From Terriglobia bacterium (GTDB lineage Bacteria; Acidobacteriota; Terriglobia; 20CM-2-55-15): 64,000 nt of DNA. The translations under genes were made by a program, and so were the position numbers. Below the pieces are notes generated by a model. That model saw nothing but the letters and a program-made list of their open reading frames with translations, was not told the DNA's origin and did no database searches. This document shows, piece after piece, positions 12,814-47,530 of this stretch (positions are counted from its first letter, which is position 1; every line of letters begins with the position of its first letter). The stretch is taken from the NCBI GenBank assembly GCA_965198225.1, contig CBDAOY010000008.1:192001-256000 (forward strand), read 5' to 3'.

Positions 12814-13632
12814 TCAGAGGATCTGGACGAGCATCACGATCGAGGCGACGTAGATCACGCCAATCACGATTGCCTGCAACGGCCGCTCGGGCATTTTCAC
12901 CGCGAGGCGACTGCCCGCAAACACTCCAGCCAGTGATCCCACCCACATCACAGCCGCGGTTATCAGCTCCAACTGGCCTCCCCACATGAAAATCACCGAC
13001 GTCTGGAGGGACAGGACGAAAGCGATCAGGATCGAGGTGCCGACGGCGCTGGCGGCCGACAGGCCCATGAGAATGATCAGCACCGGAAGTACGAGGATGC
13101 CGCCTCCGACGCTGGTTGCCCCCACGAGGCCCCCGACGATCAAGCCACACAGAACGCACAGAAACGTCCGGCTCCTGCCGCGCCCACCGGCGTCGGATGC
13201 GGGGATCGACGTCTTTCGGACCAGGTTCAACGTCAAAATGATGGCCGACAGCAGCATCGACAGCGCGATCACGAGTCCCAGGCTGTCCTGAAAGCTCTCC
13301 AGCCTGGGAGCGTCCTCAGTTCCGGCGGTCCGAATGTAGCTGTTGATGAAATAGGCCGTGACGACGTTGCCCGGGATAGCGCCGGCGAGGAAGGTCAGCG
13401 TTGCCGACCGGTCCAGGGTGCCCAGACGGTGGTGTGCGAACACGGCGTACGCCTTGGCCAGGAACGCGTACAGGCTCGCGGTGCCGACGGCGATCGAAGA
13501 AGGAAGCCCGAGAATGATGGTCAAGGCCGGAACAGTCAGCGCCCCGCCGCCGACTCCGGTCAGCGCGATGAGGAATCCGATGACCATCCCGGTGGCGAGT
13601 CGAACCAGGATTTCCCACGCGTCAAGGCCCAT
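12814..13632 (-). CDS. TauE/SafE family sulfite exporter
   Basis: Duplicated TGVGGG..VP.L / TSVGGG..LP.L and AVGT motifs with about 8 TM helices. TGATG overlap with the upstream HIT gene. Confidence 0.85.
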   Translation of the reverse strand: MGLDAWEILVRLATGMVIGFLIALTGVGGGALTVPALTIILGLPSSIAVGTASLYAFLAKAYAVFAHHRLGTLDRSATLTFLAGAIPGNVVTAYFINSYIRTAGTEDAPRLESFQDSLGLVIALSMLLSAIILTLNLVRKTSIPASDAGGRGRSRTFLCVLCGLIVGGLVGATSVGGGILVLPVLIILMGLSAASAVGTSILIAFVLSLQTSVIFMWGGQLELITAAVMWVGSLAGVFAGSRLAVKMPERPLQAIVIGVIYVASIVMLVQIL

Positions 13633-14042
13633 CAACTCTCGCTGTCCTTCCGCGCCGAGGGCCGTGGATAGTGGGCTTTTTCGGGAAGGATATGCCGGAC
13701 CCCTCCCTGCGGCCGTGGATGGTCTCCTAGGTAGCGCGGAATCAGGTGGAAGTGGACGTGGTGTATGCTCTGTCCCCCCGCCGAACCCACGTTGACGCCG
13801 ATGTTGTATCCGTCGGGGTGGTACTCATTCTCAAGGACATGCTGTTCCAGCTGGAGCAGATCGAAACAGGCAGCGGCTTCATCGGGACGGAGTTCGAAAA
13901 AACTCGCGCAGTGTCGGAGCGGAATGACGAGAGAGTGGCCCGGGCTGACCGGGTAACTGTCCCTCGCGGAGTAGGCGAACTCATTCCTTTCGGTCACGCC
14001 CCGCGGAGTGCAGAACAGACACGGACTATTCGGATCCCGCAT
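13632..14042 (-). CDS. HIT-family nucleotide hydrolase
   Basis: CLFC, PGHSLVIP and GQSIHHVHFHLIPR histidine triad. Starts immediately after the qmoC stop. Confidence 0.9.
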   Translation of the reverse strand: MRDPNSPCLFCTPRGVTERNEFAYSARDSYPVSPGHSLVIPLRHCASFFELRPDEAAACFDLLQLEQHVLENEYHPDGYNIGVNVGSAGGQSIHHVHFHLIPRYLGDHPRPQGGVRHILPEKAHYPRPSARKDSES

Positions 14043-15182
14043 TCACGTACTTGAATCCCTGTTGTCCGCTGCGAACAGCATCGCCACAAACCGGTACGAG
14101 AGGTGCGCGAACTTCGAGTAGGGGAGGTAGGCAAGGAGAAAGAAAATGAACAACAGGTGAACGAAATACATCCAGTAGGCCAGAGTCGCAACGTCGAGGA
14201 GCCGCAGCCACTCCGTGAAGAACCCGGTCAGCGTGGTCAGGCCCAGCACCGACAGAAACAGCACGTCCGAATAGGTCGTCTTGCCGGCTTTTTCCTTGTC
14301 CTTGCTCCGCCGGTAACCGAAGACGGCACACGCGATGATCACGGCGACGCCGCTCACATTGCCGAGAATCTTGACCGGGTGCCAGAGCGGCCACGGCGTC
14401 AGGTAACCAAACCCGTAGATGCCGATCCCGACCGACGTCGTCGTGATGACGAGACCGATGAACCCGTAGAACAGTGCCATGTGGGTCTTGAAGAGATGTT
14501 CCTTGTAGCTCTTCCTGTCTCCCGTTCTCTCGGATTCGCACTGGCGGAACCGGGTGTGTTTGAGGATCGAGACGATCGTCGGAATCAACCCCGCAGTCGC
14601 GTTCCCGTCGCTGGCAGCCTCCTGCCGGAGCGCCCGCCAGTAGTCGAAGGCGGTCTTGAGCGCCGCGATCACCGCCAGCCCGACCGCGATCGTAAACATG
14701 ACTTCGACGTAGATGATCGGCAGAAACTTCGAGTAGACGACCGTCCCATCCGGAAGGGAAGTCAGATTACCCAGGCTCGCGAGCATCGCGAGCAGGATGA
14801 CGGCCGGAAAACCGAACAGCAGGGGCAGGTACTTCGCCTGATCGACGGCCCGGCCCATGAACTGCGGCCAGGCATAGTGGGTGATGCTGTAGTCCCGGAC
14901 GGCCGCCATCACATCCGCGGGTTTCGCGTCCCGAGGACAGTAGGTATTGCAGACTCCGCACTGGTGGCACTGCCAAACCGAAGCGTCTGCCATCAGCCGG
15001 TCTTTCAGGCCCCACTGAACCCAGATCATTTCCTTGCGCGGGAACGGATCCGTCTCGGTCGAAATCGGGCAGATCACCGAGCAGGTTCCGCACTGGTAGC
15101 AGGAGGTCAGATCGTGGGCATCAAGGCCCATGATCTCGCGTTTGAAATCCAGATCCGGTTCGATTAAAGCTACCTTAGCCAT
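14043..15182 (-). CDS. qmoC: Quinone-interacting membrane-bound oxidoreductase subunit C
   Basis: Two CxxCxxCxxxCP [4Fe-4S] motifs followed by a NarI-like haem b membrane domain (LPYSKFAH). Lies after qmoAB. Confidence 0.92.
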   Translation of the reverse strand: MAKVALIEPDLDFKREIMGLDAHDLTSCYQCGTCSVICPISTETDPFPRKEMIWVQWGLKDRLMADASVWQCHQCGVCNTYCPRDAKPADVMAAVRDYSITHYAWPQFMGRAVDQAKYLPLLFGFPAVILLAMLASLGNLTSLPDGTVVYSKFLPIIYVEVMFTIAVGLAVIAALKTAFDYWRALRQEAASDGNATAGLIPTIVSILKHTRFRQCESERTGDRKSYKEHLFKTHMALFYGFIGLVITTTSVGIGIYGFGYLTPWPLWHPVKILGNVSGVAVIIACAVFGYRRSKDKEKAGKTTYSDVLFLSVLGLTTLTGFFTEWLRLLDVATLAYWMYFVHLLFIFFLLAYLPYSKFAHLSYRFVAMLFAADNRDSST

Positions 15183-15200
15183 CGCTTCTCCCGCAACTGA

Positions 15201-15314
15201 CTCCCCTCCTTAACCAAGGAGGTGTGGCTGCGCCAAAGGCGCAGACGGGGTGGTTCTTCCCGGTCAACACCACCCCGGCGCTTCGCGCCACCCCTCGTCA
15301 TCTGAGGAGGGGAG
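15201..15314. repeat. Short palindromic intergenic element between qmoB and qmoC
   Basis: Terminal IR CTCCCCTCCT...AGGAGGGGAG, inner IR CGGGGTGGT...ACCACCCCG and nested hairpins. Confidence 0.55.
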
Positions 15315-15327
15315 TTGGGTGGTTGGT

Positions 15328-17463
15328 TCAGAACCCCTTGAATGGATTCGGTCCAATTTCCTCGATCGACGAGGAGAACTCTTCGAGCATCCCCGGGATC
15401 TCCCGGTAGTCGGAAATCGCGACTTCCCTGACCTGAACTCTCTCCGGCTCCAGAGCCAGGCGGTCCAGGGTCTCGCGCACGTTCTCCATCCGTTGTCCCA
15501 GCAACTCGCTCCCCTGGATAAAATGGCACTGGTAGTCTTCGCCGGACTTGCAGCCCATCAAGGCGACCCCGTCGAACCCCCTGGACATCGCATCGGCAAT
15601 CAGAACGCTGTTGACCGAGCCGAGGCAGCGCACCGGAACGATCCGGACGTTCACCGGATAATCAAGCCTGTTGATGCCTGCGGCGTCCAGGGCCGGATAC
15701 GCGTCGTTCTCGCAGGCCAGTACGAGTATCCGTAGTTTCTCATCGTCGTCCTCGGGTATCTCGACGGCCCGTATCATCGACGAGAGCATGTCGACCGAAT
15801 AGTCGTCGAATGAGATGATCTGGACCGGGCAAGCGCCCATGCATATCCCACACCGCCGGCACCGATTCGGGTCCAGCGAAGGGTGGCTGTTCTCATCCAC
15901 CTCCAGCGCCCCGAACGGACACTCCTGGGAGCAGCGCCCGCAGGAGGTGCACTTCTGCATGAAGAAATCCGGATAGGACAGGTCGCCGGTTCGCGGGTGC
16001 ACCGCCGATCCCGCCGATGAGTTCTCGATACACTGAATGGCCTTGAGCGCCGCGGCGGTCCCGTCCTGAGCGCTGGAGCCCATGTCCATGGGCTTTCTCG
16101 CGCAACCGGCCGAATATATGCCGGTTCGTCGCGTCTCGTATGGGAAACAGATGAAATGAGAGTCCGCAAACCCGAACTGCGTTTGTGGAAGCTCGCCTCC
16201 CTGAAGGTAGCCGAGGTTGAGCGCCTGTTCGTCCATCCCGACCGGGGTCATTCCCGTCGACAGCACGAGCATGTCCGCCGTTATTCCGACGCTGCCGCCG
16301 AGTAGCGTGTTGTCGACTTCCAGGACGATGTTCCCGTTCGAGTCCTCCGAAACCGACCCGACATCGCCCTGTGAGAACATGATGCCTTCGTCGGCCTGAA
16401 CCTGCCGGTAGAAGTACTCGTATTGGCCGGGCGTCTGCATGTCCTGGTAGAAGACATACACGCTCGAGTTCGGGTAAAGCTTTCGCAGGTAGCTCGCCTG
16501 CTTCAGCGCGACCAGAGAGGTGACGTTGCCGCCGTACGGCAGGTGTTTTTCGTCGCCCTTGCCTTCGCACTGGAGGATTGCCACGCGCTCAACCTCACGT
16601 CCGTCGGACGGCCGGGTCACTTTTCCGGACGACGCCATTTCTTCCAGCTGAACGCTCGTGACGACGTTGGCGTATCGTCCGAAACCGTATGATTGGAACT
16701 GAGAGGCGTCGTAGGGTTTCCAGCCTGTGGCCACGACGACGGCGCCGACCGTCACGCTTCGAGATGTTCCGTCGTGGCTCAGCGTGACTTTGAAATTCCC
16801 CGGCTGACCCTCGACGCCTTCCACCTGCGAGGAAAGGCATACGGTGATATTCGCTTCCTGCTCCACCGCCCGAATCCTGTCATCGACGTCGGAATCCTGG
16901 AGGTCTGCGTAGGGAGGCCGGGTGGGAAAGTGTCTGTACATCTTCGTCGCGAATCCGCCAAGTTGCGCCTTCTTCTCGACCAACACGACCTTGAAGCCGG
17001 TTCGCGCGGCGTCGATCGCCGCCGCCATCCCGGTGATCCCACCTCCCACCACCAGGATGGTTCTCTCGTTGGCCTCCGTGTAGGGGGTTGGAGTCTCCGT
17101 CTTCTGCGCCCGCACGATACCCATCCGAAGATAATCTTCGGCGAGGCTCTGGGTCTCTTCAGTGTTCGGCGGGTGGCTCCACACCACCTGCTCCCGGATA
17201 TTCACCCGTTCCACGGGAGCGTTCTCGAATGAAAGAATGTCGGTGTTCACGCGTGGCGAGCAGGCGGCCACAACGACCCGATCGACCTCACCTTTTGCGA
17301 TGTCGCTCTTGATGAGGTTGACGTCTTCGAGACAGAAAGCGTCGGCGCTTCGGACGACGGCCGGGTTGAACTCGTCGGTCGCGATCTTTACCAGATCGTC
17401 CGGTTTGAGGCACTCCCCGATGTCACAGCCTTTGCAGACGTAGACTCCGACCTTATGTTCCAT
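15328..17463 (-). CDS. qmoB: QmoB (HdrA-like flavoprotein with Fe-S and MvhD-like domains)
   Basis: VVVAACSP, VVGGGITG FAD site, two ferredoxin motifs, C-terminal VRCLGSVN/GCKSGEDYQCHF. Confidence 0.93.
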   Translation of the reverse strand: MEHKVGVYVCKGCDIGECLKPDDLVKIATDEFNPAVVRSADAFCLEDVNLIKSDIAKGEVDRVVVAACSPRVNTDILSFENAPVERVNIREQVVWSHPPNTEETQSLAEDYLRMGIVRAQKTETPTPYTEANERTILVVGGGITGMAAAIDAARTGFKVVLVEKKAQLGGFATKMYRHFPTRPPYADLQDSDVDDRIRAVEQEANITVCLSSQVEGVEGQPGNFKVTLSHDGTSRSVTVGAVVVATGWKPYDASQFQSYGFGRYANVVTSVQLEEMASSGKVTRPSDGREVERVAILQCEGKGDEKHLPYGGNVTSLVALKQASYLRKLYPNSSVYVFYQDMQTPGQYEYFYRQVQADEGIMFSQGDVGSVSEDSNGNIVLEVDNTLLGGSVGITADMLVLSTGMTPVGMDEQALNLGYLQGGELPQTQFGFADSHFICFPYETRRTGIYSAGCARKPMDMGSSAQDGTAAALKAIQCIENSSAGSAVHPRTGDLSYPDFFMQKCTSCGRCSQECPFGALEVDENSHPSLDPNRCRRCGICMGACPVQIISFDDYSVDMLSSMIRAVEIPEDDDEKLRILVLACENDAYPALDAAGINRLDYPVNVRIVPVRCLGSVNSVLIADAMSRGFDGVALMGCKSGEDYQCHFIQGSELLGQRMENVRETLDRLALEPERVQVREVAISDYREIPGMLEEFSSSIEEIGPNPFKGF

Positions 17464-17521
17464 GATTCATCAGTGTCCAATTTAGGGGTTCGAACGCGTG
17501 CCCAGCCGCGTTCAACCAGAC

Positions 17522-18826
17522 TCAGGTGTTTACGGGCTCCGCTGCCCGCTCCCCTGCACGATGGATGGCTTGAATCGCCTTTAGCGTGGCTGCCGTCGCA
17601 TCCTGGACGGAAGTTTCGACGTCCACCGGTCCCCGCGCGCATCCGGCGGCAAAAATCCCGGGCGCGGTCTCATCGGGCAGGATGAAAGCGTCGGAATCGT
17701 AGCCGGCAGGGACACTGGATTGCGTCGGATCCACGCCTGACGCCATTCCCGTGGCGAGAACCACGAGGTCGACATTTGTCTTCGTCTTACGGGCGGAGAG
17801 GATGTCTTCCGCTTCGACGACCAGCTTGCCGGTAGTCGAGTCTTCAGCAATCCTGGCTACTTTCCCCTTCACTACCGACACGTTCGGATCGCTCTGCACT
17901 TTCTCGGAAAAGAATTCGTACGTACCCGGTGTCCTCAAGTCGATGTAGAAAATGTAGACCTTCGATTCCGGATTCTGCTCTCTCACGTACGTCGCTTCCT
18001 TCAGGGATGCCAGGCAACAGATGCTGGAGCAATAACCCAGGTGGTTCTCGTCCCTGGAGCCCGCGCACTGGATGAACGCGACGGAATTCACGTCGCCTCC
18101 GTCGGACGGCCGGACAATCCTGCCCTGGGTGGGCCCGTCCGGAGCGGCCATGCGCTCGATCATCATGTTGGTGACGACATCCGTATAGCGACCGAACCCC
18201 AGATTGTCGATCCGTGCGGCGTCGTAGGGTTGCCAACCGGTGGTCATGATCACCGCGCCGACCTTGAGGCTGAGGCTCGCGGGTTTCATATTCAGGTCAA
18301 TCGCATCGTAGTTGCACGCGTCGACGCATTTCGCGCACGCGCTGAGCTCACACGCGGAATCGTCGATCGCGTACTTCATCGGAAACGCCATCGCATGGGG
18401 CAGGTAGATCGCCTTGGTCGTACCCATACCGAGATTGAAGGCGTCCGGTCGATCTTCAGGACAAACTGCAACGCAGTCGTTGCATGCAGTGCAGCGGTCG
18501 TTCACGTAGCGAGGGTGCTGCTTGATGGCGACATCGAAATTCCCGGGTTCACCCGCGATACTCTCGACCTCCGCCATCGTGAAGAATCGAATCCTCCGAT
18601 TCTTTTTCATACGTTGGAAATTGATCTCAAGACCACAGTTGGGAGGACACAGTTTGGGGAAATACTTGGCGAGTTGCGCCACACGTCCACCCAGGTAGGG
18701 TTGTTTCTCGACGATGTAGACCTCGTATCCCACCTCGGCGGCTTCGACCGCTGCTGTGATTCCGGCGATGCCCCCGCCGACGACCAGGATGCTCTTGTGG
18801 ATTGAAGGGACTGTTTCTGCCGTCAT
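17522..18826 (-). CDS. qmoA: QmoA (HdrA-like flavoprotein)
   Basis: True start is ATG 18826 (MTAETVPSIHKSILVVGGGIAG). Motifs KYFPKLCPPNCG, QCAGSRD and YCSSICC. Confidence 0.93.
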   Translation of the reverse strand: MTAETVPSIHKSILVVGGGIAGITAAVEAAEVGYEVYIVEKQPYLGGRVAQLAKYFPKLCPPNCGLEINFQRMKKNRRIRFFTMAEVESIAGEPGNFDVAIKQHPRYVNDRCTACNDCVAVCPEDRPDAFNLGMGTTKAIYLPHAMAFPMKYAIDDSACELSACAKCVDACNYDAIDLNMKPASLSLKVGAVIMTTGWQPYDAARIDNLGFGRYTDVVTNMMIERMAAPDGPTQGRIVRPSDGGDVNSVAFIQCAGSRDENHLGYCSSICCLASLKEATYVREQNPESKVYIFYIDLRTPGTYEFFSEKVQSDPNVSVVKGKVARIAEDSTTGKLVVEAEDILSARKTKTNVDLVVLATGMASGVDPTQSSVPAGYDSDAFILPDETAPGIFAAGCARGPVDVETSVQDATAATLKAIQAIHRAGERAAEPVNT

Positions 18827-18837
18827 ATTCTGCTCCG

Positions 18838-20712
18838 CTACGGGACGAGCGGAATAAACGGTTTCTTGGACATATGCCACTCCCCGGTTGCGGGATCGTA
18901 CCTGGAATTGACGAACACCTTCCAGTTCTCTTCGTCCAGCTTCGGGAAATCGCCGCGGTAGTAGTACCCGGGCCACCGGGTTTCTTCCCTGAACTGGATG
19001 TGACGCAGGTGCGATTCCGCGCACCACGTCCGATCCCACAGCTCCCAGCACCGGAGCAGATCGTGGAGATCCCGCGCGCCCAGCTTCTGGAGGTCTTCCC
19101 GGTAAAGACCCAGCAGCTCCAGGCCCCTCGCCAGGGTGGGGCCGTTTGTCATGTAGAAGTTCCCCGGACCCGCGACGTACTCGTCCATCGTCTTTTGGAG
19201 CCGCATCAGAGCCTGCTTGGGCAGGAGGTAATGGGGATTGACCTCCACGCGTGTCGAGGCATCCTTGTGCTCCTCCAGGGTCTGGAACGGCTGATAGAGC
19301 TCTGCCTTGATGGCCTCGACCCTGCCGTCGTCGTAGCGCAGCGGATTGGGATGGTCGGCGATGTAGGCGACCGCCGCCTTGCCCGCCATCCGTCCCTCGG
19401 TGAACGAACCCGACGAGAACTTGTGCGCCGATGCTCCCACTCCGTCCCCCGCCGCAAACAGGCCGTTGATGGTCGTCATGCGGTTGTAGCCCCAGAAGTA
19501 TTCCTTCGGTGAAATATCTTCCGGTCCGCTGACCCAGGCGCCGCATGCCGAGGAGTGCGAGCCCATCAGGTAGGGTTCCGTGAGAATGATCTCCGATGGC
19601 GTCTTCGCGGGATCGATGTTCTCCGATGCCCACAGCAGAGCCTGCGACATCGTCATGTCGAGAAAGTCTTCCCACGCATCGGACTCGATCTCCTTCATCT
19701 TCTTCTTGTCGTTCTGCACCTCGGTGAACAACTTCTGGAGCGCTTTGTCGGTCCGCATGTAGTGAGGCCCCCGGCCGTCCTTGATGTCGTTCAACATCAA
19801 ATGGTTCCGGAGCGGTGTCGGCACAGGCTTCGCCCGGCCGTATTCCCCCCACTCGAGCAGCTCGTGGGCGCGAGTCTTCTCCAGTTCGTCGCCGTATGCG
19901 TTCTCGGCTTTGGCCTTGAAGAGCAGGAACCAGGCACCGACCGGGCCGTAGCCGTCCTTGAAGCGCGTGACGACCACGCGGTGCTCCATCTGGGTCATCT
20001 CGGCGCCGGCTTTCTGCATCAGGCTGTATGCGGAGCCGGTATTCCACACGGCGTACCAGATCCGGCCGAGTCCCTCGCCAGTTGCACGGGGACGGAAGAC
20101 GTTCGTGGCGCCGCCAGCCGAGCAGATCACGGTCCTGGACTTGAAGACATAGATTTTGTGGTCCCTCACGCTGAACCCGACCGCGCCCGAGACCGTCGTC
20201 GGCTCGTCGGCGTCGGTCAGCAGATGGGAAACGAAGATTCTCTCGTAGACGTTCCCCTCGCCGACCGCTTTCTTTGCCGCTTCCGCGACGATCGGCTTGT
20301 AGGACTCGCCGTGGATCATCACCTGCCACTTGCCTTCCCGTTTGTAGGTCCCGTCTTCGTTCTTGAAGAACGGCAGGCCCCATTCTTCGAACATGTGGAC
20401 GCTCTCATCCACGTGCCGGGCGATGTCATAGACCAGGTCCTCGCGCGACAGGCCCATCAGGTCGTTCCGGACATACCGGACGAAATCCTCCGGCTGGTTC
20501 TCGCCGTTCTTCATTCCCATGTAGCAGTTGATGGCGGACAGGCCCATCGCGACCGCCCCGCTTCTCTCCGTGGCGGCTTTCTCGACGAGCACAACCCGCA
20601 ACCCTTTTTCCTTGGCCCAGTAGGCGGCTTCGAAAGCGGCCCCGGTACCGGCCATTCCGCCGCCGACGACCAGGACGTCACATTCGACTGTTTCGACTTC
20701 AGGCTCAATCAT
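18838..20712 (-). CDS. aprA: Adenylylsulfate reductase alpha subunit
   Basis: RSGAVAMGLSAINCY, WQVMIHGESYK, RFKDGYGPVGAW, HKFSSGS and EETRWPGYYYR. Confidence 0.97.
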   Translation of the reverse strand: MIEPEVETVECDVLVVGGGMAGTGAAFEAAYWAKEKGLRVVLVEKAATERSGAVAMGLSAINCYMGMKNGENQPEDFVRYVRNDLMGLSREDLVYDIARHVDESVHMFEEWGLPFFKNEDGTYKREGKWQVMIHGESYKPIVAEAAKKAVGEGNVYERIFVSHLLTDADEPTTVSGAVGFSVRDHKIYVFKSRTVICSAGGATNVFRPRATGEGLGRIWYAVWNTGSAYSLMQKAGAEMTQMEHRVVVTRFKDGYGPVGAWFLLFKAKAENAYGDELEKTRAHELLEWGEYGRAKPVPTPLRNHLMLNDIKDGRGPHYMRTDKALQKLFTEVQNDKKKMKEIESDAWEDFLDMTMSQALLWASENIDPAKTPSEIILTEPYLMGSHSSACGAWVSGPEDISPKEYFWGYNRMTTINGLFAAGDGVGASAHKFSSGSFTEGRMAGKAAVAYIADHPNPLRYDDGRVEAIKAELYQPFQTLEEHKDASTRVEVNPHYLLPKQALMRLQKTMDEYVAGPGNFYMTNGPTLARGLELLGLYREDLQKLGARDLHDLLRCWELWDRTWCAESHLRHIQFREETRWPGYYYRGDFPKLDEENWKVFVNSRYDPATGEWHMSKKPFIPLVP

Positions 20713-20818
20713 TCGCTGCCTCCAGTGATCACGGCGTGAGGGCGCGGGCCCTCGTCTTCATCCAGATATCTCGTCAGGGCCGGTTGTCGGGAAGGAAAAC
20801 CCTCTGACCAGAACGGCT

Positions 20819-21265
20819 TCAGTTCGAAAGTGCGGGCAGGTTGTCAACGCCCAGGTACTCCGACTGGCCGTACAACGCCTGTGTCCGCAGTGCATCGGGT
20901 GGGGGGCTTGCCGACACCCGGAACGGCTCGATCGTTCCCCAGGCGGTCGTGCGGATCGCGTATTTGAACCGCTTCATCTGGCCGTTCCGGTACTTCACGG
21001 TCCACATGATGGAGTCCGTGCCCCTGAGCGGCGTCAAGCTTGCGCCCAGCGGAACGACGTCATTGTACCCGCGCATGTCGATCGCGGACTGCGGGCACGT
21101 CTTGACGCACGAATAGCACTCCCAGCACATGTCCGGTTCCAGGTTGTACGCCTTTCCCAGCGCCGGATCCAGCGCCATGATGTCGCTGGGACAGATGTAG
21201 TGACACGCCGGCCGATCCAGAGCCTTGCAGCCGTCACACTTGTTCGGGTTCACATACGTGGGCAT
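20819..21265 (-). CDS. aprB: Adenylylsulfate reductase beta subunit
   Basis: MPTYVNPNKCDGC...CHYICP, CWECYSCVKTCP and IMWTVKYRNG. Confidence 0.97.
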   Translation of the reverse strand: MPTYVNPNKCDGCKALDRPACHYICPSDIMALDPALGKAYNLEPDMCWECYSCVKTCPQSAIDMRGYNDVVPLGASLTPLRGTDSIMWTVKYRNGQMKRFKYAIRTTAWGTIEPFRVSASPPPDALRTQALYGQSEYLGVDNLPALSN

Positions 21266-21283
21266 GTATTCATTCCTCCGGGC

Positions 21284-22498
21284 CTATTCACCCTCGGCGT
21301 ACTTGTGGAGTTTGACCTCCACCCTGTCCTCGAGTGTTCTGTAGTATTCCTTGAGAATAGCCAGCACTTCGGGCCGACTGAAGTGGTCGGGCACGTCCTC
21401 CCCGCTCGACAGCCACTTCCGGAGCATCGTTCCGCTCACCAGCAGCCGATCCTCCTTGCCGTGCGGACAGGTCTTCATCGACGCGACGCCGTCACACCGG
21501 GCGCAGTAAAAAGTCCAGTCGATCTTGAGAGGCCGTATCTCCAGCGCGTCTTCCGGAATCTCGTCGAAGATGTGATGAGCGTCGAACGGACCGTAGTACT
21601 CTCCCACCCCGGCATGGTCGCGTCCAACGATGAGGTGGCTGCAGCCAAAGTTCTGCCGGAACACCGCATGCAACAGTGCCTCTCTCGGTCCTCCGTATCG
21701 CATCTCCATGGGATACACGGCCTGGATGCAGGTATCGTCTACAAAATAGTTCTCCACCAGCATGTCGACGGCGCCGACGCGAACCTCCGCGGGAATGTCT
21801 CCCGGCTTCAGTTTTCCCACCAGCTGGTGGATCAGGATTCCGTCGCAGACTTCGATGGCGATCTTCGCCAGGTACTCGTGGGAACGATGCATCGGATTTC
21901 GCAGCTGCAGCGCTGCGACCGCGCTCCATCCCTTCTGCTCGAACAGTTGCCGCGTTTCCACCGGCCGGAGGTAGCTGCCGGAGTACTTCTTCGGGTACGG
22001 GCCTTCGCTCAAGACCCGGACCTTCCCGCCGATGTTCACATCCCCCTGGGCCATCACCGTGGCGACGCCGGGATGCTCCGAGTCGGTGGTCTTGAAAACC
22101 TGTTTGCACTCGTGAGCCTTGTCGATCCGGTATTTCTCGTCGATGACGAGGCTTCCCATGAGCTCGTCGCTTTCGGAATCGACGAGAGCCACCTCCTGTC
22201 CGTCTCTCAAGCCGTCCGCCTCTTCCGGAGTTGCCGAAAGCGTGATCGGAATGGGCCAGAAGCAGCCGGCGTCAGTCCGAAGCGCGTCGCACACGCCCTG
22301 CCAGTCGGCACGACCCATGAAGCCGTCCAACGGTGTGAACGCTCCGATACCCATCATGATGAGGTCGGAAGTTTCCCTGGACGTCATCCGAACCTGAGCC
22401 AGCCCGGCGATCCTCTCCCGTTCTTCTCGAAGCTCGGCTCCTGAGGTCAGGAGCGGCTTCAACTTGCGTTCTGAACCATGCGGGTTCGCCAGAGCCAT
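21284..22498 (-). CDS. sat: Sulfate adenylyltransferase (dissimilatory-type ATP sulfurylase, no APS-kinase domain)
   Basis: [32 protein letters not shown] and a CxxC...CxH Zn site. Confidence 0.97.
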
Positions 22499-31598: not shown

Positions 31599-32534
31599 AT
31601 GGAGTCGATGCCACGTAAGAAGATTTCGGTAATCGGGGCGGGCAACGTCGGTGCGACAACCGCTCTGCGCCTGGCCGGCCTGGGTCTGTTCGACATTGCC
31701 CTGGTGGATGTGATCGAGGGCATGCCCCAGGGACGAGCCCTGGATATGCTGCAGGCCGGGGCGGTCACCTTGTCGGACAGCTCCATTGTGGGGAGCAACG
31801 GCTATGACGTCACCGCGGACTCGGACATCGTGATAATCCCAGGCGGGCTGCCGCGGCTGCCGGGAATGACCCGCGACGATCTGCTGTTGAAGAACGCCGA
31901 GATCGTGACCCAGGCAGTTCGGGGCGTGATGGAGAAATCTCCGGAACCGATTATGATCGTGGTAACGAACCCGCTCGATGCGATGTGTCACGTCGCAGCC
32001 CGGACGAGCGGACTCCCGCTTTCGCGGGTGATCGGTATGGCCGGAATTCTCGATTCTGCGCGCTTCCGGACGTTCATCGCCCTCGAACTGGGCGTGTCGG
32101 TCCGCAACGTCGACGCACTGGTTCTCGGAGGCCATGGCGACACCATGGTTCCACTGCCCCGACTGTCGACGGTGGCCGGCGTGCCGATCACGGAGTTGCT
32201 TTCCCCCGACCGGATCGACGCGCTGGTGGACCGAACACGGAACGGCGGCACGGAGATCGTGAAGCTGCTGAAGACCGGCGGCGCGTACTATGCACCTTCG
32301 GCGGCCATCGTCGAAATGGTTCGGGCGATCGTGCTCGATGAGCAGAACATCCTGCCCTGCTCCGCGTATCTTCAAGGACAGTACGGGATCGAGGATGTTT
32401 ACGTGGGCGTCCCGGTGGTTCTGGGCGCCGAAGGGATAAAGCGGATCGTCGAGCTCGACTTGCTGCCTGACGAATTGGAAGCACTGCACCGATCCGCGGA
32501 CGCAGTCCGGTCGCTCAGAGACAAGTTGCCCTAG
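31599..32534 (+). CDS. mdh: Malate dehydrogenase (LDH-like type)
   Basis: [31 protein letters not shown] and GGHGD. Confidence 0.9.
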
Positions 32535-32561
32535 TCACATCCTTCAACGGAGGCCCTGAAA

Positions 32562-33758
32562 ATGAGGAATCAATGGAACCGTCGAGAGCTTCTGATCAAC
32601 GGAGGGCGCGCTGCGGCGGCTTTCGCCGCTCTCGGGATACCCGAAACTGTCTGGGCGCTCCAGGATGGTGAAGAGTTGGTGGACTTTGCCGACTACACCG
32701 ATCAGTTTCGCGTCGAGTTTCAGCAGAGAAATCCGCGCGTTCGCTGCTTCGACCTGCGTCGGCTGACGAGTTGGGCCACCCCCAACGACGAGTTTTACGC
32801 TTTTCATCAGACCGAGACAATGCGCGTGGATGCCTCCCAGTGGCGTCTGCGCATCGGAGGATTCGTCGAGCGACCCATGGAGTTCACGCTCGAGGAACTC
32901 AAGCAGAGAGCGGACAAGCGGGAGGAGGCCGTGACGCTCGAGTGTTCCGGCAACTCCCCGCGCCCGGCACGTATGAGCGGCTTGTTGAGCAATGCCGTCT
33001 GGTCGGGTATCGGCCTTCGATCGATCCTTACCGAATGCCGCGTGAAGCCGGAAGCCCGCGAGGTCGTGTTTCTCGGAATGGACATGGAGAAGGAGAACAA
33101 GTGGCAGGCCAGGGGCCAGGAGTACGAGATCCCGCATGGACGCAGTGTCTACATCCAGGACGCGCTGAACCCGGAGGCCATGCTTGCCTACGAAATGAAC
33201 GGGGAGCCGTTGCCGCCGGATCAGGGTTTTCCGCTCCGACTGATCCTGCCCGGCTGGTACGGGATGACGCAAATCAAGTGGTTGACGCGTATCGAAGTCC
33301 TCGATCGCCGCTACGAAGGCGAGCATATGGCACGAAACTACCTGAGCCTGCGATCCGTGGAAGCTCCGGAAGGAACGATCTGGCTCGACACTTCGATCTC
33401 CAGGAACAACATGAAGTCGCTCGTGGCCCGCGTGACGCGCCGCCCGAGCGGCAGCGGCTACGCTTACAGGATTTCCGGAGCCGCCTGGGGGGGCCGGACA
33501 CCGATCGAGAAGGTCGAGGTCCGTGTCGACGAAGGCCCGTGGCGCAGAGCCACGATCACCGATCGCCGTGGCAAGTATGCGTGGATGTTGTGGTCCGTCG
33601 ATTGGCCTGCCCCTTCACGTGGCGAGCACACCCTGGTGTCTAGGGCGACCGACGCGAACGGTCGCGTCCAGCCTCCGCTGGATGAGCTGAGGAAGGATAT
33701 TGCGAGCGGTCGTGAGAACTACTCCCAGTGGCCGCGACCCATCGTGATCAGGAACTGA
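32562..33758 (+). CDS. Tat-exported sulfite-oxidase-family molybdoenzyme (SorA/SoxC-like)
   Basis: NRRELL Tat motif, TLECSGN Mo-ligating Cys, GFPLRLILPGWYG..IKWL and a Moco dimerisation domain (SRATD). Confidence 0.88.
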   Translation: MRNQWNRRELLINGGRAAAAFAALGIPETVWALQDGEELVDFADYTDQFRVEFQQRNPRVRCFDLRRLTSWATPNDEFYAFHQTETMRVDASQWRLRIGGFVERPMEFTLEELKQRADKREEAVTLECSGNSPRPARMSGLLSNAVWSGIGLRSILTECRVKPEAREVVFLGMDMEKENKWQARGQEYEIPHGRSVYIQDALNPEAMLAYEMNGEPLPPDQGFPLRLILPGWYGMTQIKWLTRIEVLDRRYEGEHMARNYLSLRSVEAPEGTIWLDTSISRNNMKSLVARVTRRPSGSGYAYRISGAAWGGRTPIEKVEVRVDEGPWRRATITDRRGKYAWMLWSVDWPAPSRGEHTLVSRATDANGRVQPPLDELRKDIASGRENYSQWPRPIVIRN

Positions 33759-41295: not shown

Positions 41296-41328
41296 GTATC
41301 TTCCCCTTGTGTTTGGACTTTCCTGGCG

Positions 41329-42708: not shown

Positions 42709-42789
42709 ACGGTGCTCCTTTTAGCTCTTGAATATGTCTACGCTCGGTTTCTGACCGATCTACAACCGGATCTAAAATGGAGGGCGCGC

Positions 42790-45950: not shown

Positions 45951-46000
45951 AAAGACGGGCGGATGACGGGACGGGAAGTGACGATGACGAGTGAGAAGGT

Positions 46001-46066
46001 GTAGGTGGGCTCTATGAGCGCACGTCGTTTCGGCTCGAAGAATGTGCGGTCATAGACCGCACCTAC
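46001..46066. repeat. Single REPIN doublet
   Basis: GTAGGTGGGCTCTATGAGCGCAC ... GTGCGGTCATAGACCGCACCTAC. Confidence 0.85.
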
Positions 46067-46091
46067 ACTTCCTTTACGTCGCAGCAGCTTT

Positions 46092-47249
46092 TCAGGCGCT
46101 GCGGTAAAGTTTGGTGAGGACAAATTCCTCGTGTCCGAGTACCTCCGCCGCCGTCCGTCTTCCGTTCATCGTGCGGACCAGCATGTCGATCAATGCGTCG
46201 CCGGCCTGATCGAGATTCATTTCACGGCGCAGGATGCCGCTGATGTCGACGTCGATGTGCTCCGACATGGTTTCCACGGTGATCGGGTTGGCGGTGGTCT
46301 TGATGACCGGGATGATCGGATGGCCGACGATGTTTCCCTGACCCGTCGTGAAGAAATGGACGACCGACCCGGCGGCGGCCCACAGAGTGATCGCTTCCGC
46401 CGCCGCCGATGAAGTGTCCATAAACCACAGCCCCGGGCCCGTGGGTGCTTCGGCGGGCTTCAGGACCCCGATATACTTCGTCTTACCGATTTTCTGAAGG
46501 TTCCCGAGCGCCTTCTCTTCGATCGTCGTCAACCCGCCCGTGATGTTTCCCTTGGTGGGCTGGGATCCCAGCAGATCCACGCCCTGGCCCACTATGAAGT
46601 CGTTGTAGTCGCTCCAGGTCTTGTAGAACGCCTCCTGAACTTCAGGGGTTGCGCCTTGCGCCTTAGCGATTTCCTCGGCGCCCGTAATCTCCGAGGTTTC
46701 GCCGAACATGAATGTCGTTCCCATGGGAACGATTCTGTCCACGACGTTACCGATGGCGGGATTGGAGGCAAGCCCGGATGTCGTGTCCGATTCGCCGCAC
46801 TTCGTCGACAGGGTGAGATCCTCGAAGGTGCACTCGGTCCGTTCCTGCTCCGACGCCCACTGTACGAATTCCATCGCTTTTCGCGACGCCATCTCGACGG
46901 TCTTGAGATCGCCGTGGCGCTCGATGGCAAACCCGGCAACCGGTTTGCCGGTTTTCGCGATGCCGTCGACGAGCCGCTGGGTCCAGATGGGCTCGATGCC
47001 GATGACCACGCAAGCCGCCACGTTCGGGTTGGCGCCCGTACCAATCAAAGTGTCGAAGTACAGTTCCAGATCCTCGCCAAACTGCAGTCGGCCGTACGGG
47101 TGAGGCAGGGCGATAGTGCCGCGAATATGACTGGCAACCGCTTCACAGGCAGAGTTCGACAGGTCGTCGAGCGGAAGAATCACCACGTGATTTCGAACCC
47201 CGACGGTGCCGTTGCCGCGTCGATACCCTTGGAAGACAATCTTCTCCAT
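46092..47249 (-). CDS. suyB: UxaA-family large subunit, (2R)-sulfolactate sulfo-lyase beta-like
   Basis: [39 protein letters not shown] and [12 protein letters not shown]. Split architecture with a separate SAF subunit. Start ATG 47249. Confidence 0.8.
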
Positions 47250-47251
47250 CG

Positions 47252-47530
47252 CTACCACCTCGTAGTCTTCAGGTTGTGGGTGTGGACATGATCCCCGACC
47301 TCGAAGCTCTCTGACGCGATGCCGATGCTCACGCCGTACTTGATGACCTCTTCTCCCTTTCCTCGGGGGCTGATGGCGATCTTGTGGCCGAGTGGAATGT
47401 CCTCGGTCGCGGTCAGGGTCGACGTGGAGTCGTCCTCCATGGTCCAACCCTCCACCGATTCACCTTTCTTGAGATCGACCACCGCAACGCCCACCTGGTC
47501 CACCGTGTTGTGTCGAATGAATCCGATCAT
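47252..47530 (-). CDS. suyA: SAF-domain small subunit, sulfolactate sulfo-lyase alpha-like
   Basis: 92 aa: [25 protein letters not shown] and [11 protein letters not shown]. Confidence 0.8.

What the first reader, a model, noticed from the sequence alone, without database searches (positions are those of the whole stretch)
12814..47530. Candidate organosulfonate-to-sulfate pathway: suyAB + sat-aprBA-qmoABC-HIT-tauE + periplasmic sulfite oxidase, no dsr in the window
Seen: a complete sat-aprBA-qmoABC operon ending in tauE, a suyAB-like lyase, a Tat sulfite-oxidase-family enzyme and several TonB receptors, all within about 40 kb, with no dsrAB/dsrC/dsrMK. Established: SuyAB cleaves (R)-sulfolactate to pyruvate + sulfite; TauE exports sulfite; Apr/Sat are reversible, and QmoABC links Apr to quinones in sulfate reducers and some oxidisers. 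Inference: this probable acidobacterium may run Apr-Qmo-Sat oxidatively to conserve energy (ATP + quinol) from sulfonate-derived sulfite, with export and periplasmic oxidation as a second route. Sulfate reduction using dsr genes elsewhere in the genome is the alternative.
Basis: partly seen in the sequence, partly recalled or inferred. Interest (0 to 1): 0.8.

Follow-up and report, generated by a model that had tools for sequence, protein, structure and literature searches.

The report
Sulfite-oxidising APS reductase operon, no dsr
A soil acidobacterium that has lost the usual genes for using sulfate carries an intact APS-reductase operon with an unusual HIT-enzyme gene, and most likely burns sulfite released from sulfolactate to sulfate rather than respiring sulfate.

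Summary
Window 12814-22498 (- strand) is one intact eight-gene operon, sat-aprB-aprA-qmoA-qmoB-qmoC-HIT-tauE. A true SuyAB orthologue lies 23.6 kb away and a Tat-signal sulfite-oxidase-family gene 10 kb away.

The 97%-complete genome has no dsrA, dsrB or dsrC.

Further findings:
- The genome also lacks cysH/cysD, SulP and Sbp, and its only siroheme sulfite reductase gene carries a deletion confirmed in four sequencing runs. Sulfite cannot be reduced here by any siroheme enzyme.
- The window's mdh is a second MDH paralogue found only in suyAB genomes, a candidate sulfolactate dehydrogenase.
- The HIT gene belongs to a subfamily found next to apr genes in 16 of 17 testable metagenome loci, and in 0 of 61 loci with more distant HITs.
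- The AprA clade spans about eight phyla, and all 21 members tested lack dsrA.

Best reading (0.6): AMP-dependent sulfite oxidation, with HIT cleaving APS. Main rival (0.17): Apr replaces CysH for sulfate assimilation. The direction is inferred, not shown. The idea is already published for other lineages; the HIT link appears new.

The parts
21284..22498 (-). sat, ATP sulfurylase (404 aa), first gene of the operon
   Evidence: NF003166 505 bits against a cut-off of 387; PF01747 plus PUA_2. Single copy in the genome.
20819..21265 (-). aprB, APS reductase beta subunit (148 aa)
   Evidence: TIGR02060 198 bits against a cut-off of 135.65; APS-reductase_C plus ferredoxin domains.
18838..20712 (-). 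aprA, APS reductase alpha subunit (624 aa)
   Evidence: TIGR02061 987.5 bits against a cut-off of 641.75. 89% identical to the two sister species. Lies in a 24-row clade in which every tested member lacks dsrA.
17522..18805 (-). qmoA (427 aa), HdrA-like flavoprotein
   Evidence: Matches the HdrA2 model at positions 138-570 with E 7e-119, below its cut-off. Sits between aprA and qmoB and is conserved in relatives.
15328..17463 (-). qmoB (711 aa), HdrA-like with a C-terminal MvhD/FlpD domain
   Evidence: PF02662 FlpD E 3e-41; Pyr_redox_2; Fer4.
14043..15182 (-). qmoC (379 aa), Fe-S plus membrane haem-b type anchor
   Evidence: NF038018 qmoC equivalog 393 bits against a cut-off of 300.
13632..14042 (-). 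HIT-family protein (136 aa), motif HHVHFHLIPRY. Proposed APS-cleaving enzyme (adenylylsulfatase or APS phosphorylase).
   Evidence: PF01230. Nearest solved structures are Ap4A phosphorylase (3WO5/3ANO, E 3e-17) and Fhit. Orthologues follow qmoC in 10 genome loci. 16 of 17 testable metagenome loci at >=63% identity have apr/qmo upstream, against 0 of 61 at <=57%.
12814..13635 (-). tauE/TSUP-family permease (273 aa), last gene; its start overlaps the HIT stop
   Evidence: PF01925 133.7 bits against a cut-off of 32.6. Only TauE-family gene in the genome. Also follows qmoC in L032 and follows HIT in L159.
31599..32534 (+). Second malate/lactate-dehydrogenase paralogue (311 aa); candidate (R)-sulfolactate/sulfopyruvate dehydrogenase
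   Evidence: TIGR01763 429.7 bits. The housekeeping copy lies elsewhere at 58% identity. A second copy exists in 7 of 8 suyB genomes and in 0 of 26 others. It is adjacent to suyB in G012, G013, G015 and G026.
32562..33758 (+). Tat-signal sulfite-oxidase-family molybdoenzyme (398 aa); substrate not settled
   Evidence: Oxidored_molyb plus Mo-co_dimer. Scores for SorA, SoxC and SorT are all below cut-off. Best solved relative is SorA 2BLF, E 7e-36, with the CSGNS cysteine motif aligned. Several paralogues in the genome.
46092..47249 (-). suyB, sulfolactate sulfo-lyase large subunit (385 aa)
   Evidence: 65% identical to Paracoccus versutus SuyB and 63% to Cupriavidus pinatubonensis SuyB, both in sulfonate loci; other UxaA-family members are below 40%. 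Galactarate dehydratase model scores 146 against a cut-off of 731.
47252..47530 (-). suyA, small subunit (92 aa)
   Evidence: 49% and 41% identical to the small subunits of the same two loci. Start chosen at the ATG with GAGGAA upstream.
9859..12796 (.). Two transposase genes (IS4-like 9859-10995 on -, IS5-like 11315-12796 on +) just downstream of tauE; a later insertion, not part of the system
   Evidence: Pfam DDE_Tnp_1_4 and DUF772+DDE_Tnp_1. Synteny with G016/G017 resumes at window 4-2196.

Best explanation
The operon is an AMP-dependent sulfite-oxidising system in an acidobacterium of class Terriglobia that has no sulfate respiration and no sulfate assimilation.

Proposed steps (every step is inferred from homology and context; none was measured):
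1. Cytoplasmic sulfite plus AMP is oxidised to APS by AprBA. The two electrons pass through QmoABC to the quinone pool.
2. APS is then cleaved. Sat does this with pyrophosphate and yields ATP. The operon's HIT enzyme, acting on the adenylyl-sulfate bond, yields AMP or ADP plus sulfate without needing pyrophosphate.
3. TauE exports the anion.

One sulfite source in this genus is (R)-sulfolactate, cleaved by SuyAB to pyruvate and sulfite. The second MDH paralogue would interconvert sulfopyruvate and sulfolactate upstream of SuyAB.

The Tat-exported sulfite-oxidase-family enzyme may oxidise exported sulfite, but this is the weakest link.
For: 1. No sulfide-forming route from sulfite.
- dsrA, dsrB and DsrC are absent.
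- The only NIR_SIR locus is an orthologue of the assimilatory sir that sits within 3 kb of cysH/cysD in 9 relatives.
- In this genome that gene has a net deletion of about 355 bp plus a frameshift, which removes the ACPGTDTC cysteine motif.
- Error-free contigs from 4 runs of 4 studies bridge the junction.
- All eight operon genes are nevertheless intact, with dN/dS of 0.05-0.21 against G016.

2. No sulfate assimilation or recognised uptake.
- PAPS_reduct: 0 matches here, while 14 of 14 control genomes match.
- No SulP and no Sbp.

3. The HIT subfamily is specific to apr.
- It follows qmoC in 10 of 80 genome loci.
- Among metagenome loci with HIT at >=63% identity, 16 of 17 testable have qmoC (11) or aprBA (5) upstream. 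The figure is 0 of 61 at <=57% identity.
- The five Qmo-less cases carry, before aprB, a protein with 3-5 predicted membrane segments that matches only the membrane half of QmoC. That is the AprM-type layout, which the literature describes for sulfur oxidisers (PMC8477390, passages).
- HIT enzymes cleave AMP-X bonds. An APS:phosphate adenylyltransferase is an accepted alternative last step of sulfite oxidation (PMC8232776, passage).

4. Exporter-family genes occur in the operon in several lineages: TauE here, in L032 and in L159, and a PF03601 'sulfate exporter' family gene directly before sat in L037.

5. Phyletic pattern.
- AprA sits in a 24-row clade (SH-aLRT 96) from about eight phyla. All 21 members tested lack dsrA.
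- 7 of the 30 genomes tested have Apr but no dsrA, no PAPS_reduct and no NIR_SIR at all. Two of those are closed chromosomes, L103 and L079.

6. A sulfite source is present: the SuyAB orthologue plus the co-occurring MDH paralogue.
Against: - Direction was never measured, and AprBA, Sat and Qmo are reversible.
- The sister species G016 and G017 keep an intact sir gene, so an assimilatory use there is not excluded.
- 23 of 30 genomes with close AprA lack PAPS_reduct, and 16 of those 23 keep a NIR_SIR protein. That is exactly what replacement of CysH by Apr would predict.
- SuyB orthologues occur in only 5 of the 30 and Xsc over cut-off in only 5 of the 30, 7 genomes in all. A sulfonate source is therefore not general for this Apr clade. 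Other sulfite sources were not surveyed.
- suyAB occurs without apr in two sister genera and in G015.
- TSUP/TauE transport direction and substrate cannot be read from sequence.
- HIT carries the hydrolase-type HxHxH motif and a Fhit-like AGQS segment. Whether it hydrolyses or phosphorolyses APS, or acts on APS at all, is untested.
- Its nearest paralogues sit beside HNH nucleases, so the ancestral substrate may have been a nucleic-acid adenylate.
- Most comparison genomes are MAGs of unstated completeness, and one (G046) is unpublished.
Confidence: 0.6

Rival explanations
1. Assimilatory displacement. Sat-AprBA-QmoABC works reductively and replaces the lost CysDN/CysH, supplying sulfite from sulfate to the ferredoxin-type Sir for cysteine synthesis. 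TauE would be the sulfate importer.
For: - PAPS_reduct is absent in all 4 genomes of the genus but present in 26 of 34 of the order.
- It is absent in 23 of 30 genomes carrying close AprA, and 16 of those 23 keep a NIR_SIR protein.
- G016 and G017 have an intact sir gene.
- No other sulfate importer was found, so TauE could fill that role.
- Neukirchen et al. 2023 (PMC10504309, passages) raise an assimilatory role for Sat/AprAB in Dsr-less organisms.
Against: - In this genome sir is broken while the operon stays intact.
- 7 of 30 Apr genomes, two of them closed chromosomes, have no siroheme reductase at all.
- Two sister genera lack both PAPS_reduct and apr, so loss of cysH does not require apr.
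- An APS-cleaving HIT in a reductive operon would be a futile drain.
- The same HIT subfamily also accompanies AprM-like operons.
Confidence: 0.17
2. Oxidative Apr as above, but suyAB is unrelated to it. Sulfite would come from other sources such as persulfide or thiosulfate oxidation, other sulfonates or external sulfite. SuyAB would serve mainly to supply sulfur or carbon.
For: - suyAB plus the MDH paralogue occur without apr in genera g4 and g9 and in G015. There they lie beside cysM-like and cystathionine beta-synthase genes.
- Only 5 of 30 Apr-clade genomes have a SuyB orthologue.
- The two loci are 24-47 kb apart with unrelated genes between them.
Against: - In this genome the broken sir means SuyAB-derived sulfite cannot be assimilated. 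It must be oxidised or exported.
- Apr/Sat is the only cytoplasmic sulfite-consuming system found here.
Confidence: 0.15
3. Dissimilatory sulfate reduction, as in the peatland Acidobacteria of Hausmann et al. 2018, using dsr genes elsewhere or another sulfite reductase.
For: The sat-aprBA-qmoABC gene order is the one found in sulfate reducers. Acidobacterial MAGs with this set plus dsr exist (PMC6018796, abstract and passages).
Against: - No dsrA, dsrB or DsrC in a 97%-complete genome.
- No dsrA in the closed genomes of two sister species.
- The only siroheme reductase gene is a broken assimilatory type.
- All 21 tested members of the AprA clade lack dsrA.
- Multihaem sulfite reductases such as MccA were not searched.
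Confidence: 0.03

Closest known systems
AMP-dependent ('indirect') sulfite oxidation by AprBA plus Sat in Dsr-less organosulfur-degrading heterotrophs, as proposed for SAR202 Chloroflexi (Mehrshad et al. 2018, PMC5864207, passages) and for subsurface MAGs (PMC12019592, passages)
   Same: Apr and Sat occur without dsr. Sulfite is expected from organosulfonate breakdown. The proposed role is oxidation to sulfate. SAR202-type AprA sequences are among the relatives found here.
   Different: - This operon has the full QmoABC complex, whereas most SAR202 loci found here show no Qmo match.
- It also has a HIT gene and tauE.
- The host is a soil acidobacterium.
- The sulfite source is SuyAB.
- The assimilatory genes are demonstrably lost or broken.
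sat-aprBA-qmoABC of sulfate-reducing peatland Acidobacteria (Hausmann et al. 2018, PMC6018796)
   Same: Same phylum and same gene set and order for sat, aprBA and qmoABC. suyAB was also reported in some of those MAGs.
   Different: - Those MAGs carry dsrAB, dsrC and dsrMKJOP; this genome and its sister species carry none.
- In that paper suyAB was found in MAGs able only to reduce sulfite, and was read as feeding sulfite respiration.
- The passages read mention no HIT or tauE in those operons.
APS:phosphate adenylyltransferase (APAT, 'ADP sulfurylase') of Thiobacillus denitrificans (Bruser et al. 2000, seen only as a citation in PMC8232776); also the APS-cleaving side activities of Fhit/Hint proteins (recalled, not checked)
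   Same: A HIT-superfamily nucleotidyl transferase or hydrolase that removes sulfate from APS as the last step of sulfite oxidation. This is the role proposed here for the operon's HIT.
   Different: - Membership was not tested because no APAT sequence was at hand.
- The window protein has the HxHxH motif and is nearest to Ap4A phosphorylase and Fhit.
- From memory, APAT belongs to the GalT branch.
- Activity is untested.
SuyAB (R)-sulfolactate sulfo-lyase of Paracoccus pantotrophus (recalled: Rein et al. 2005) and Cupriavidus pinatubonensis (hpsRNOUPsuyAB cluster; PMC11382572, passages)
   Same: Two subunits of about 10 and 42 kDa. 63-65% (large) and 41-49% (small) identity to the proteins of those loci.
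   Different: No suyZ, suyR, hpsN, hpsO or hpsP orthologue in this genome. The conserved partner in this order is an MDH-family paralogue instead.

Membership tests
Dissimilatory APS reductase AprBA | AprA and AprB score above the curated equivalog cut-offs and are adjacent, aprB before aprA | tested here: met
   TIGR02061 987.5 against 641.75; TIGR02060 198 against 135.65; genes 106 bp apart.
QmoABC complex | QmoC equivalog; two HdrA-like subunits, the second with an MvhD/FlpD domain; placed downstream of aprA | tested here: met
   NF038018 393 against 300; HdrA-type matches for qmoA and qmoB; PF02662 in qmoB.
Dsr-dependent sulfate or sulfite respiration | dsrA, dsrB and dsrC present in the genome | tested here: not met
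   0 matches for dsrA and DsrC; dsrB only 31.8 bits against a cut-off of 341.5. Genome is 97% complete. dsrMKJOP and dsrL were not searched.
Assimilatory sulfate reduction (CysDN/CysH/Sir) | PAPS_reduct-family cysH and cysD; an intact siroheme sulfite reductase; a sulfate importer | tested here: not met
   PAPS_reduct 0 matches. sir has a deletion and frameshift. No SulP and no Sbp. DASS, CysZ and PiT-type carriers were not searched.
SuyAB sulfolactate sulfo-lyase | Split UxaA-type enzyme (small plus large subunit), closer to SuyAB of sulfonate loci than to sugar-acid dehydratases | tested here: met
   65% and 63% identity to SuyB of the Paracoccus and Cupriavidus loci, against below 40% for the rest of the family. 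Galactarate dehydratase model scores 146 against 731.
SuyAB sulfolactate sulfo-lyase | Releases sulfite and pyruvate from (R)-sulfolactate; Fe2+ dependent | not testable with these tools
   Needs an enzyme assay.
SuyAB sulfolactate sulfo-lyase | Genomic link to sulfonate genes (suyZ, suyR, hpsNOP, slc/comC) | tested here: not met
   No orthologue of SuyZ, HpsN, HpsO or HpsP. A co-occurring MDH paralogue is the only conserved partner. Ldh_2-type ComC was not searched.
SorA / SorT / SoxC sulfite dehydrogenases | Score above the NCBIfam equivalog cut-off; cytochrome partner gene adjacent | tested here: not met
   SorA 177 against 600; SoxC 178 against 420; SorT 129 against 570. The next gene is a TonB-type receptor. 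The fold family, Tat motif and Mo-cysteine motif are present.
HIT superfamily, Fhit / Ap4A-phosphorylase-like branch | HIT domain with HxHxHxx motif; nearest solved relatives in that branch | tested here: met
   PF01230 E 2e-19. Motif HVHFHLI is invariant in alignment A1. 3WO5, 6AF2, 3ANO and 1FHI match at E 3e-17 to 1e-16.
APAT (APS:phosphate adenylyltransferase) | Sequence membership in the APAT family; APS + Pi gives ADP + sulfate | not tested
Only the functional analogy is claimed.
TauE/SafE (TSUP) permease | Pfam PF01925 above the gathering score | tested here: met
   133.7 against 32.6. Substrate and direction cannot be tested here.

The most novel reading that the evidence does not exclude
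A dedicated HIT-enzyme subfamily, found essentially only next to APS reductase genes (both Qmo-type and AprM-like operons) in many phyla, cleaves APS to sulfate plus AMP or ADP. This would make Apr-dependent sulfite oxidation independent of pyrophosphate and Sat. Its presence would then mark oxidative, sulfite-consuming Apr systems in Dsr-less heterotrophs that have abandoned sulfate assimilation. It would give a sequence marker for the direction of Apr, which AprBA phylogeny alone has not provided.
Probability: 0.35. Interest if true: 0.7.

Novelty: new variant of a known kind. Interest (0 to 1): 0.58.

Why it matters
aprA and sat are widely used as markers of sulfate reduction in soils and peat. 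This genus, and a cross-phylum AprA clade in which all 21 tested members lack dsrA, show that many such genes sit in organisms that cannot respire sulfate. Gene-based budgets of sulfate reduction would then be inflated.

If the oxidative reading is right, soil Acidobacteria turn plant- and microbe-derived C3 sulfonates such as sulfolactate back into sulfate while conserving energy.

The apr-linked HIT gene is a cheap, directly assayable candidate for the missing 'direction marker' of Apr systems. The suyAB-linked MDH paralogue is a candidate for an unassigned sulfolactate dehydrogenase.

The strong co-absence of cysH/cysD also raises a testable question: does Apr replace CysH in assimilation?

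Tried and rejected
- Rfam scan of the whole window: 0 families at gathering score. The promoter and terminator scan of 12500-24500 gave counts at or below shuffle expectation and was not used.
- RNA evidence: no RNA holder was listed among the sequencing runs, so nothing can be said on expression.
- Sulfite-producing genes next to sat in other phyla:
  - The TPP enzyme in L035 and L039 is acetolactate-synthase or 2-hydroxyacyl-CoA-lyase-like and sits with a formyl-CoA transferase. It is not Xsc.
  - The metallo-beta-lactamase before sat in L097 is lactonase-like, not a persulfide dioxygenase.
  - For one search I gave 114 of the 125 flanking ORFs listed. The 7 ORFs of the unpublished L086 and 4 of L099 were left out.
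- Transposases as a transfer vehicle: rejected. Synteny with G016 and G017 resumes beyond them, and the operon with both flanks is shared by three species.
- An early note said suyAB was absent from the 80 kb fetched around the operon in G016 and G017. That was an artefact of where the fetched stretch ended. It lies 47 and 41 kb from sat.
- Literature on a HIT-apr link:
  - 'qmoABC' together with 'histidine triad' gave 0 papers.
  - A looser search on 'histidine triad' with the apr terms listed 15 of 361 papers, and none of the 15 contained 'histidine triad'.
  - A search on 'Rv2613c' gave one irrelevant paper.
- The DsrD search had no positive control and counts for nothing.
- AprA phylogeny against curated reductive and oxidative reference sets was not possible. 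Only the 80 nearest loci were at hand, and the tree used the quick method without bootstraps and without classical Desulfovibrio or Allochromatium references.

Full report
**What is there**

ORF listing and family scans confirm an eight-gene, same-strand cluster at window 12814-22498 (- strand):
- sat (NF003166, 505 bits against a cut-off of 387)
- aprB (TIGR02060, 198 against 135.65)
- aprA (TIGR02061, 987.5 against 641.75)
- qmoA and qmoB (HdrA-like; qmoB ends in an FlpD/MvhD domain)
- qmoC (NF038018, 393 against 300)
- a 136-aa HIT protein (PF01230)
- a TauE/TSUP permease (PF01925)

Gaps between genes are at most 145 bp. qmoC/HIT abut and HIT/tauE overlap, so a single operon is likely. That is an inference from spacing.

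The SuyAB-like pair is at 46092-47249 (385 aa) and 47252-47530 (92 aa), once the starts with ribosome-binding sites are chosen. The sulfite-oxidase-family gene at 32562-33758 begins MRNQWNRRELL, a twin-arginine motif. Three TonB-type receptors are present. Two transposase genes lie just beyond tauE.

**The whole genome**

The window is G000:C8:192001-256000 of a 6.41-Mb, 9-contig genome rated 97.04% complete and 2.75% contaminated.
- dsrA: 0 matches.
- dsrB: 31.8 and 24 bits against a cut-off of 341.5.
- DsrC: 0 matches.
- DsrD: 0 matches, but that search had no positive control.
- sat, aprA, aprB, qmoC, tauE and suyAB are single-copy.

The only NIR_SIR locus is a NirA/Sir-type gene on contig C7 that reads in two frames. 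Compared with the intact 722-aa frame of sister species G016, about 355 bp net are missing. The gap removes the second ferredoxin-like half-domain and the ACPGTDTC cysteine motif, and it shifts the frame. In nine genomes of the same order this gene lies within 3 kb of a cysH/cysD pair (coordinates), so I take it to be the assimilatory sulfite reductase.

The deletion is not an assembly artefact. Contigs without any difference bridge the junction in four runs from four studies, one of which may be the source sample.

The genome also has no PAPS_reduct-family gene (no cysH or cysD; 14 of 14 control genomes match). It has no SulP and no Sbp. Its only TauE-family gene is the one in the operon.

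So this organism can neither respire sulfate through Dsr nor assimilate it by the known route, and it cannot reduce sulfite with a siroheme enzyme.

**Relatives**

In the order (34 species genomes), aprA occurs in 3: G000 and two closed genomes, G016 and G017, all in one genus. The fourth member of the genus, G015 (94% complete), shows none.

The full operon, including HIT and tauE, is conserved in G016 and G017 at 63-89% protein identity. So are the flanking genes: receptor, creatininase-like gene, mdh, receptor, SO-family gene, ankyrin, DUF1552 and DUF1592. Synteny resumes beyond the transposases. The insertion elements are therefore later arrivals in G000, and the operon was already in the common ancestor of the three species. 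All eight genes are intact, with dN/dS of 0.05-0.21 against G016. dS is near saturation, so these values are rough.

**The AprA clade**

A scan of one genome per species found 333 relatives of AprA, and the best 80 were kept. The nearest are:
- the two sister species, 89%
- Bryobacteraceae and Acidiferrales MAGs, 83%
- 70-75% matches in Methylomirabilota, Rokubacteria, Nitrospinota, 'Deltaproteobacteria' MAGs, Acidimicrobiia, Alphaproteobacteria, Vulcanimicrobiaceae and Dehalococcoidia

A quick maximum-likelihood tree (79 rows, SH-aLRT only, no classical sulfate-reducer or Allochromatium references) places the window protein in two nested groups. The inner one is a 5-row acidobacterial group (support 98). 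The outer one is a 24-row clade (support 96).

I searched the 30 genomes behind the Qmo-linked and nearest loci.
- dsrA is over cut-off in 3, all alphaproteobacterial MAGs outside the 24-row clade. All 21 tested members of that clade lack it.
- PAPS_reduct is present in only 7 of the 30.
- NIR_SIR is present in 23 of the 30.
- Seven genomes have Apr with no dsrA, no PAPS_reduct and no NIR_SIR. Two of them are closed chromosomes (L103 and L079).

These counts include one genome flagged unpublished (G046, locus L086: dsrA-negative, PAPS_reduct-negative, NIR_SIR-positive, Xsc-positive). Most of the others are MAGs of unstated completeness.

**The HIT gene**

Orthologues at 50-75% identity directly follow qmoC in 10 of the 80 loci, from Acidobacteriota, 'Deltaproteobacteria', Methylomirabilota, Rokubacteria, Nitrospinota and Acidimicrobiia. 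One of the ten is truncated. Their alignment has 71% mean column identity, an invariant HxHxH motif and a conserved C-terminal GGVRxxxPxKAxY tail.

To test the link from the HIT side, I scanned metagenome contigs with that alignment.
- 19 loci have a HIT at 63-74% identity, followed by a gap down to 57% or less.
- Of the 19, two have no upstream DNA. Of the 17 testable, 11 have qmoC immediately upstream, 5 have aprB-aprA upstream without Qmo, and 1 has neither.
- None of the 61 loci at 57% or less has any apr, qmo or sat match.

In the five Qmo-less loci, aprB is preceded by a 249-292-aa protein with three to five predicted hydrophobic segments. That protein matches only the membrane half of the QmoC model (positions 149-355 of 360, E 8e-11 and 1e-6) and aligns with window QmoC at E 1e-6. 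This is the layout of AprM-type operons, which the literature assigns to sulfur oxidisers (PMC8477390, passage read).

The HIT subfamily therefore tracks APS reductase itself, not Qmo.

Its nearest solved relatives are Ap4A phosphorylase (3WO5, 3ANO, 6AF2) and Fhit, at E 3e-17 to 1e-16. An APS:phosphate adenylyltransferase is an accepted alternative to Sat in the last step of indirect sulfite oxidation (PMC8232776, passage read). That Fhit/Hint proteins cleave APS is recalled, not checked.

I therefore propose that this HIT cleaves APS. Whether it does so by water or by phosphate cannot be read from the sequence.

Two literature searches found no paper linking HIT proteins to apr or qmo operons.

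The more distant HIT paralogues sit beside HNH-nuclease genes. I scanned 18 of the 62 neighbouring ORFs listed, covering 15 loci, and 12 of those loci had an HNH neighbour. This is a caution about the ancestral substrate.

**SuyAB and its partner**

The large subunit has very close homologues. Some are named '(2R)-sulfolactate sulfo-lyase subunit beta' by one source and 'UxaA family hydrolase' by another.

Against plasmid and chromid records, 13 records match at 60-80% identity and 449 below 60%. The listed rows fall from 62-67% straight to below 40%.
- The top group includes Paracoccus versutus, whose locus reads regulator, small subunit, large subunit, 'putative sulfate exporter'.
- It also includes Cupriavidus pinatubonensis, whose locus reads hpsN, hpsO, MFS transporter, dehydrogenase, suyAB. 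That matches the published hpsRNOUPsuyAB cluster (PMC11382572, passages read).

Direct comparison gives 65% and 63% identity for SuyB, and 49% and 41% for SuyA. No orthologue of SuyZ, HpsN, HpsO or HpsP was found in the genome.

Within the order, SuyB orthologues (78-100% identity) occur in 8 of 34 genomes: the genus of the window (4 of 4) and two other genera (2 of 2 each). Three further matches at 30-33% are other UxaA proteins.

In G015 and in three genomes of those other genera, an MDH/LDH-family gene lies directly beside suyB. The window's mdh (31599-32534) is the orthologue of that gene. It is 64-73% identical to it, against 56-62% to the housekeeping MDHs.

A second MDH-family copy occurs in 7 of the 8 suyB genomes and in 0 of the 26 others. 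The three genera may be a single clade, so this could be one evolutionary event.

I infer a sulfopyruvate/(R)-sulfolactate dehydrogenase. L-malate-type dehydrogenases acting on sulfolactate are recalled from the coenzyme M literature, not checked here.

The same genomes are the ones lacking PAPS_reduct: the window's genus 4 of 4, genus g4 2 of 2, and one of two in g9. The remaining genome without a match is an 84%-complete genome in another genus.

suyAB lies 24, 47 and 41 kb from sat in G000, G016 and G017. This is shared synteny of close species, not an operon.

**The periplasmic enzyme**

It belongs to the sulfite-oxidase fold family and aligns best with SorA of Starkeya (2BLF, E 7e-36), with the molybdenum-binding cysteine motif conserved. 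It misses all three curated sulfite-dehydrogenase cut-offs, has several paralogues and has no cytochrome gene beside it. Its adjacency to mdh in G000 is not conserved: in G016 and G017 mdh follows the creatininase-like gene, and the SO-family gene follows a receptor. Sulfite oxidation by this enzyme is possible but unsupported.

**Weighing the readings**

*Dsr-based sulfate respiration* is effectively excluded.

*Oxidative reading.* It explains four things:
- the intact operon in a genome with a broken sir gene and no sulfate assimilation genes
- the apr-specific HIT, which also accompanies AprM-like operons
- the exporter-family genes in or beside such operons (TauE here, in L032 and in L159; a PF03601 family gene directly before sat in L037)
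- the seven Apr genomes with no sulfite reductase of any siroheme kind

*Assimilatory rival.* It is fed by the striking co-absence of cysH/cysD (23 of 30), with NIR_SIR kept in 16 of those 23, and by the intact sir of G016 and G017. Neukirchen et al. 2023 raise both possibilities for Dsr-less Apr organisms (PMC10504309, passages read).

*The sulfonate link.* It is specific to this genus rather than general. SuyB orthologues occur in 5 of the 30 genomes and Xsc over cut-off in 5 of the 30, 7 genomes in all. Other sulfite sources were not surveyed.

I put the oxidative reading with SuyAB as a source at 0.6, assimilation at 0.17, oxidation with suyAB unrelated at 0.15, and Dsr-type respiration at 0.03.

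**Novelty**

Oxidation by Apr/Sat of sulfite derived from organosulfur compounds in Dsr-less heterotrophs is in print for SAR202 (PMC5864207) and for subsurface MAGs (PMC12019592). Acidobacterial sat-apr-qmo and suyAB are in print in Dsr-bearing MAGs (PMC6018796).

New here, as far as two literature searches show:
- the apr-specific HIT subfamily
- the suyAB-linked MDH paralogue
- the documented loss or breakage of every sulfate-assimilation step alongside an intact apr operon

Supplements of the cited papers were not opened. They may list operon neighbours that bear on the HIT claim.

Noticed in passing
G000 contig C7:874214-875898 (outside the window; locus L001): The genome's only siroheme sulfite/nitrite reductase gene has an internal deletion of about 355 bp and a frameshift relative to the intact 722-aa gene of the sister species. 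The junction is carried by error-free contigs in four runs of four studies.
   Followed up: yes
Metagenome loci L178-L238, e.g. L178:5876-8020, L199:6977-8369, L208:6989-8544: The HIT proteins most similar to the apr-linked subfamily (45-57% identity) sit next to HNH-endonuclease-domain genes in 12 of 15 loci examined, and are fused into a longer 339-aa protein in L178 and L187. This is a recurrent HIT-HNH pair of unknown role.
   Followed up: partly
window 39661-45270 and 49854-52370; G016 and G017 stretches L022-L029: Cassettes of an ankyrin-repeat protein, a DUF1552 (HXXSHH) protein and a DUF1592/1588/1587/1585/1595 protein recur three times in the sister genomes at 63-82% identity. They fill the space between the apr operon and suyAB.
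   Followed up: no
window 22499-24378: About 1.9 kb lies between sat and the first TonB-type receptor, against about 0.6 kb in G016. Its ORFs (22645-23370 on +, 22940-23689 on -) have no Pfam or NCBIfam match, and the stretch has no tblastx match in the sister genomes. It is a G000-specific insertion of unknown content.
   Followed up: partly
window 4-2196 and 2605-3717: The gene at 4-2196 (88% identical to its G016 counterpart) has a partial second copy at 2605-3717 that matches the same G016 gene at about 78%. Together with the two transposases at 9859-12796, this marks roughly 8-9 kb of extra DNA between tauE and the conserved neighbour.
   Followed up: partly
window 27796-33758 compared with G016 and G017: Local rearrangement. 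In G000 the order is creatininase-like, receptor, mdh paralogue, SO-family gene. In the sister species mdh follows the creatininase-like gene, and the SO-family gene follows the receptor about 5 kb further on.
   Followed up: partly
L122 (G012), L123 (G013), L124 (G026), L128 (G015): In the genera that have suyAB without apr, suyAB and the MDH paralogue lie beside a cysM-like PLP enzyme, a GNAT acetyltransferase, a cystathionine beta-synthase and, in genus g9, a CitMHS_2 transporter. This hints that sulfolactate sulfur feeds cysteine metabolism there.
   Followed up: partly
L035:3498-7747 and L039:3727-7885: In two 'Deltaproteobacteria' MAGs the sat-aprBA-qmoABC-HIT operon is preceded by a GntR regulator, an acetolactate-synthase or 2-hydroxyacyl-CoA-lyase-like TPP enzyme and a formyl-CoA transferase (over cut-off). 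This is an oxalate or 2-hydroxyacyl-CoA module with no evident sulfur link.
   Followed up: partly
window 47734-48660 and 48755-49747: A SoxH-related metallo-beta-lactamase-fold gene (below cut-offs, many paralogues in the genome) lies upstream of suyA and is conserved there in G016 and G017. It is followed by a 330-aa ORF with a weak cytochrome c match.
   Followed up: no
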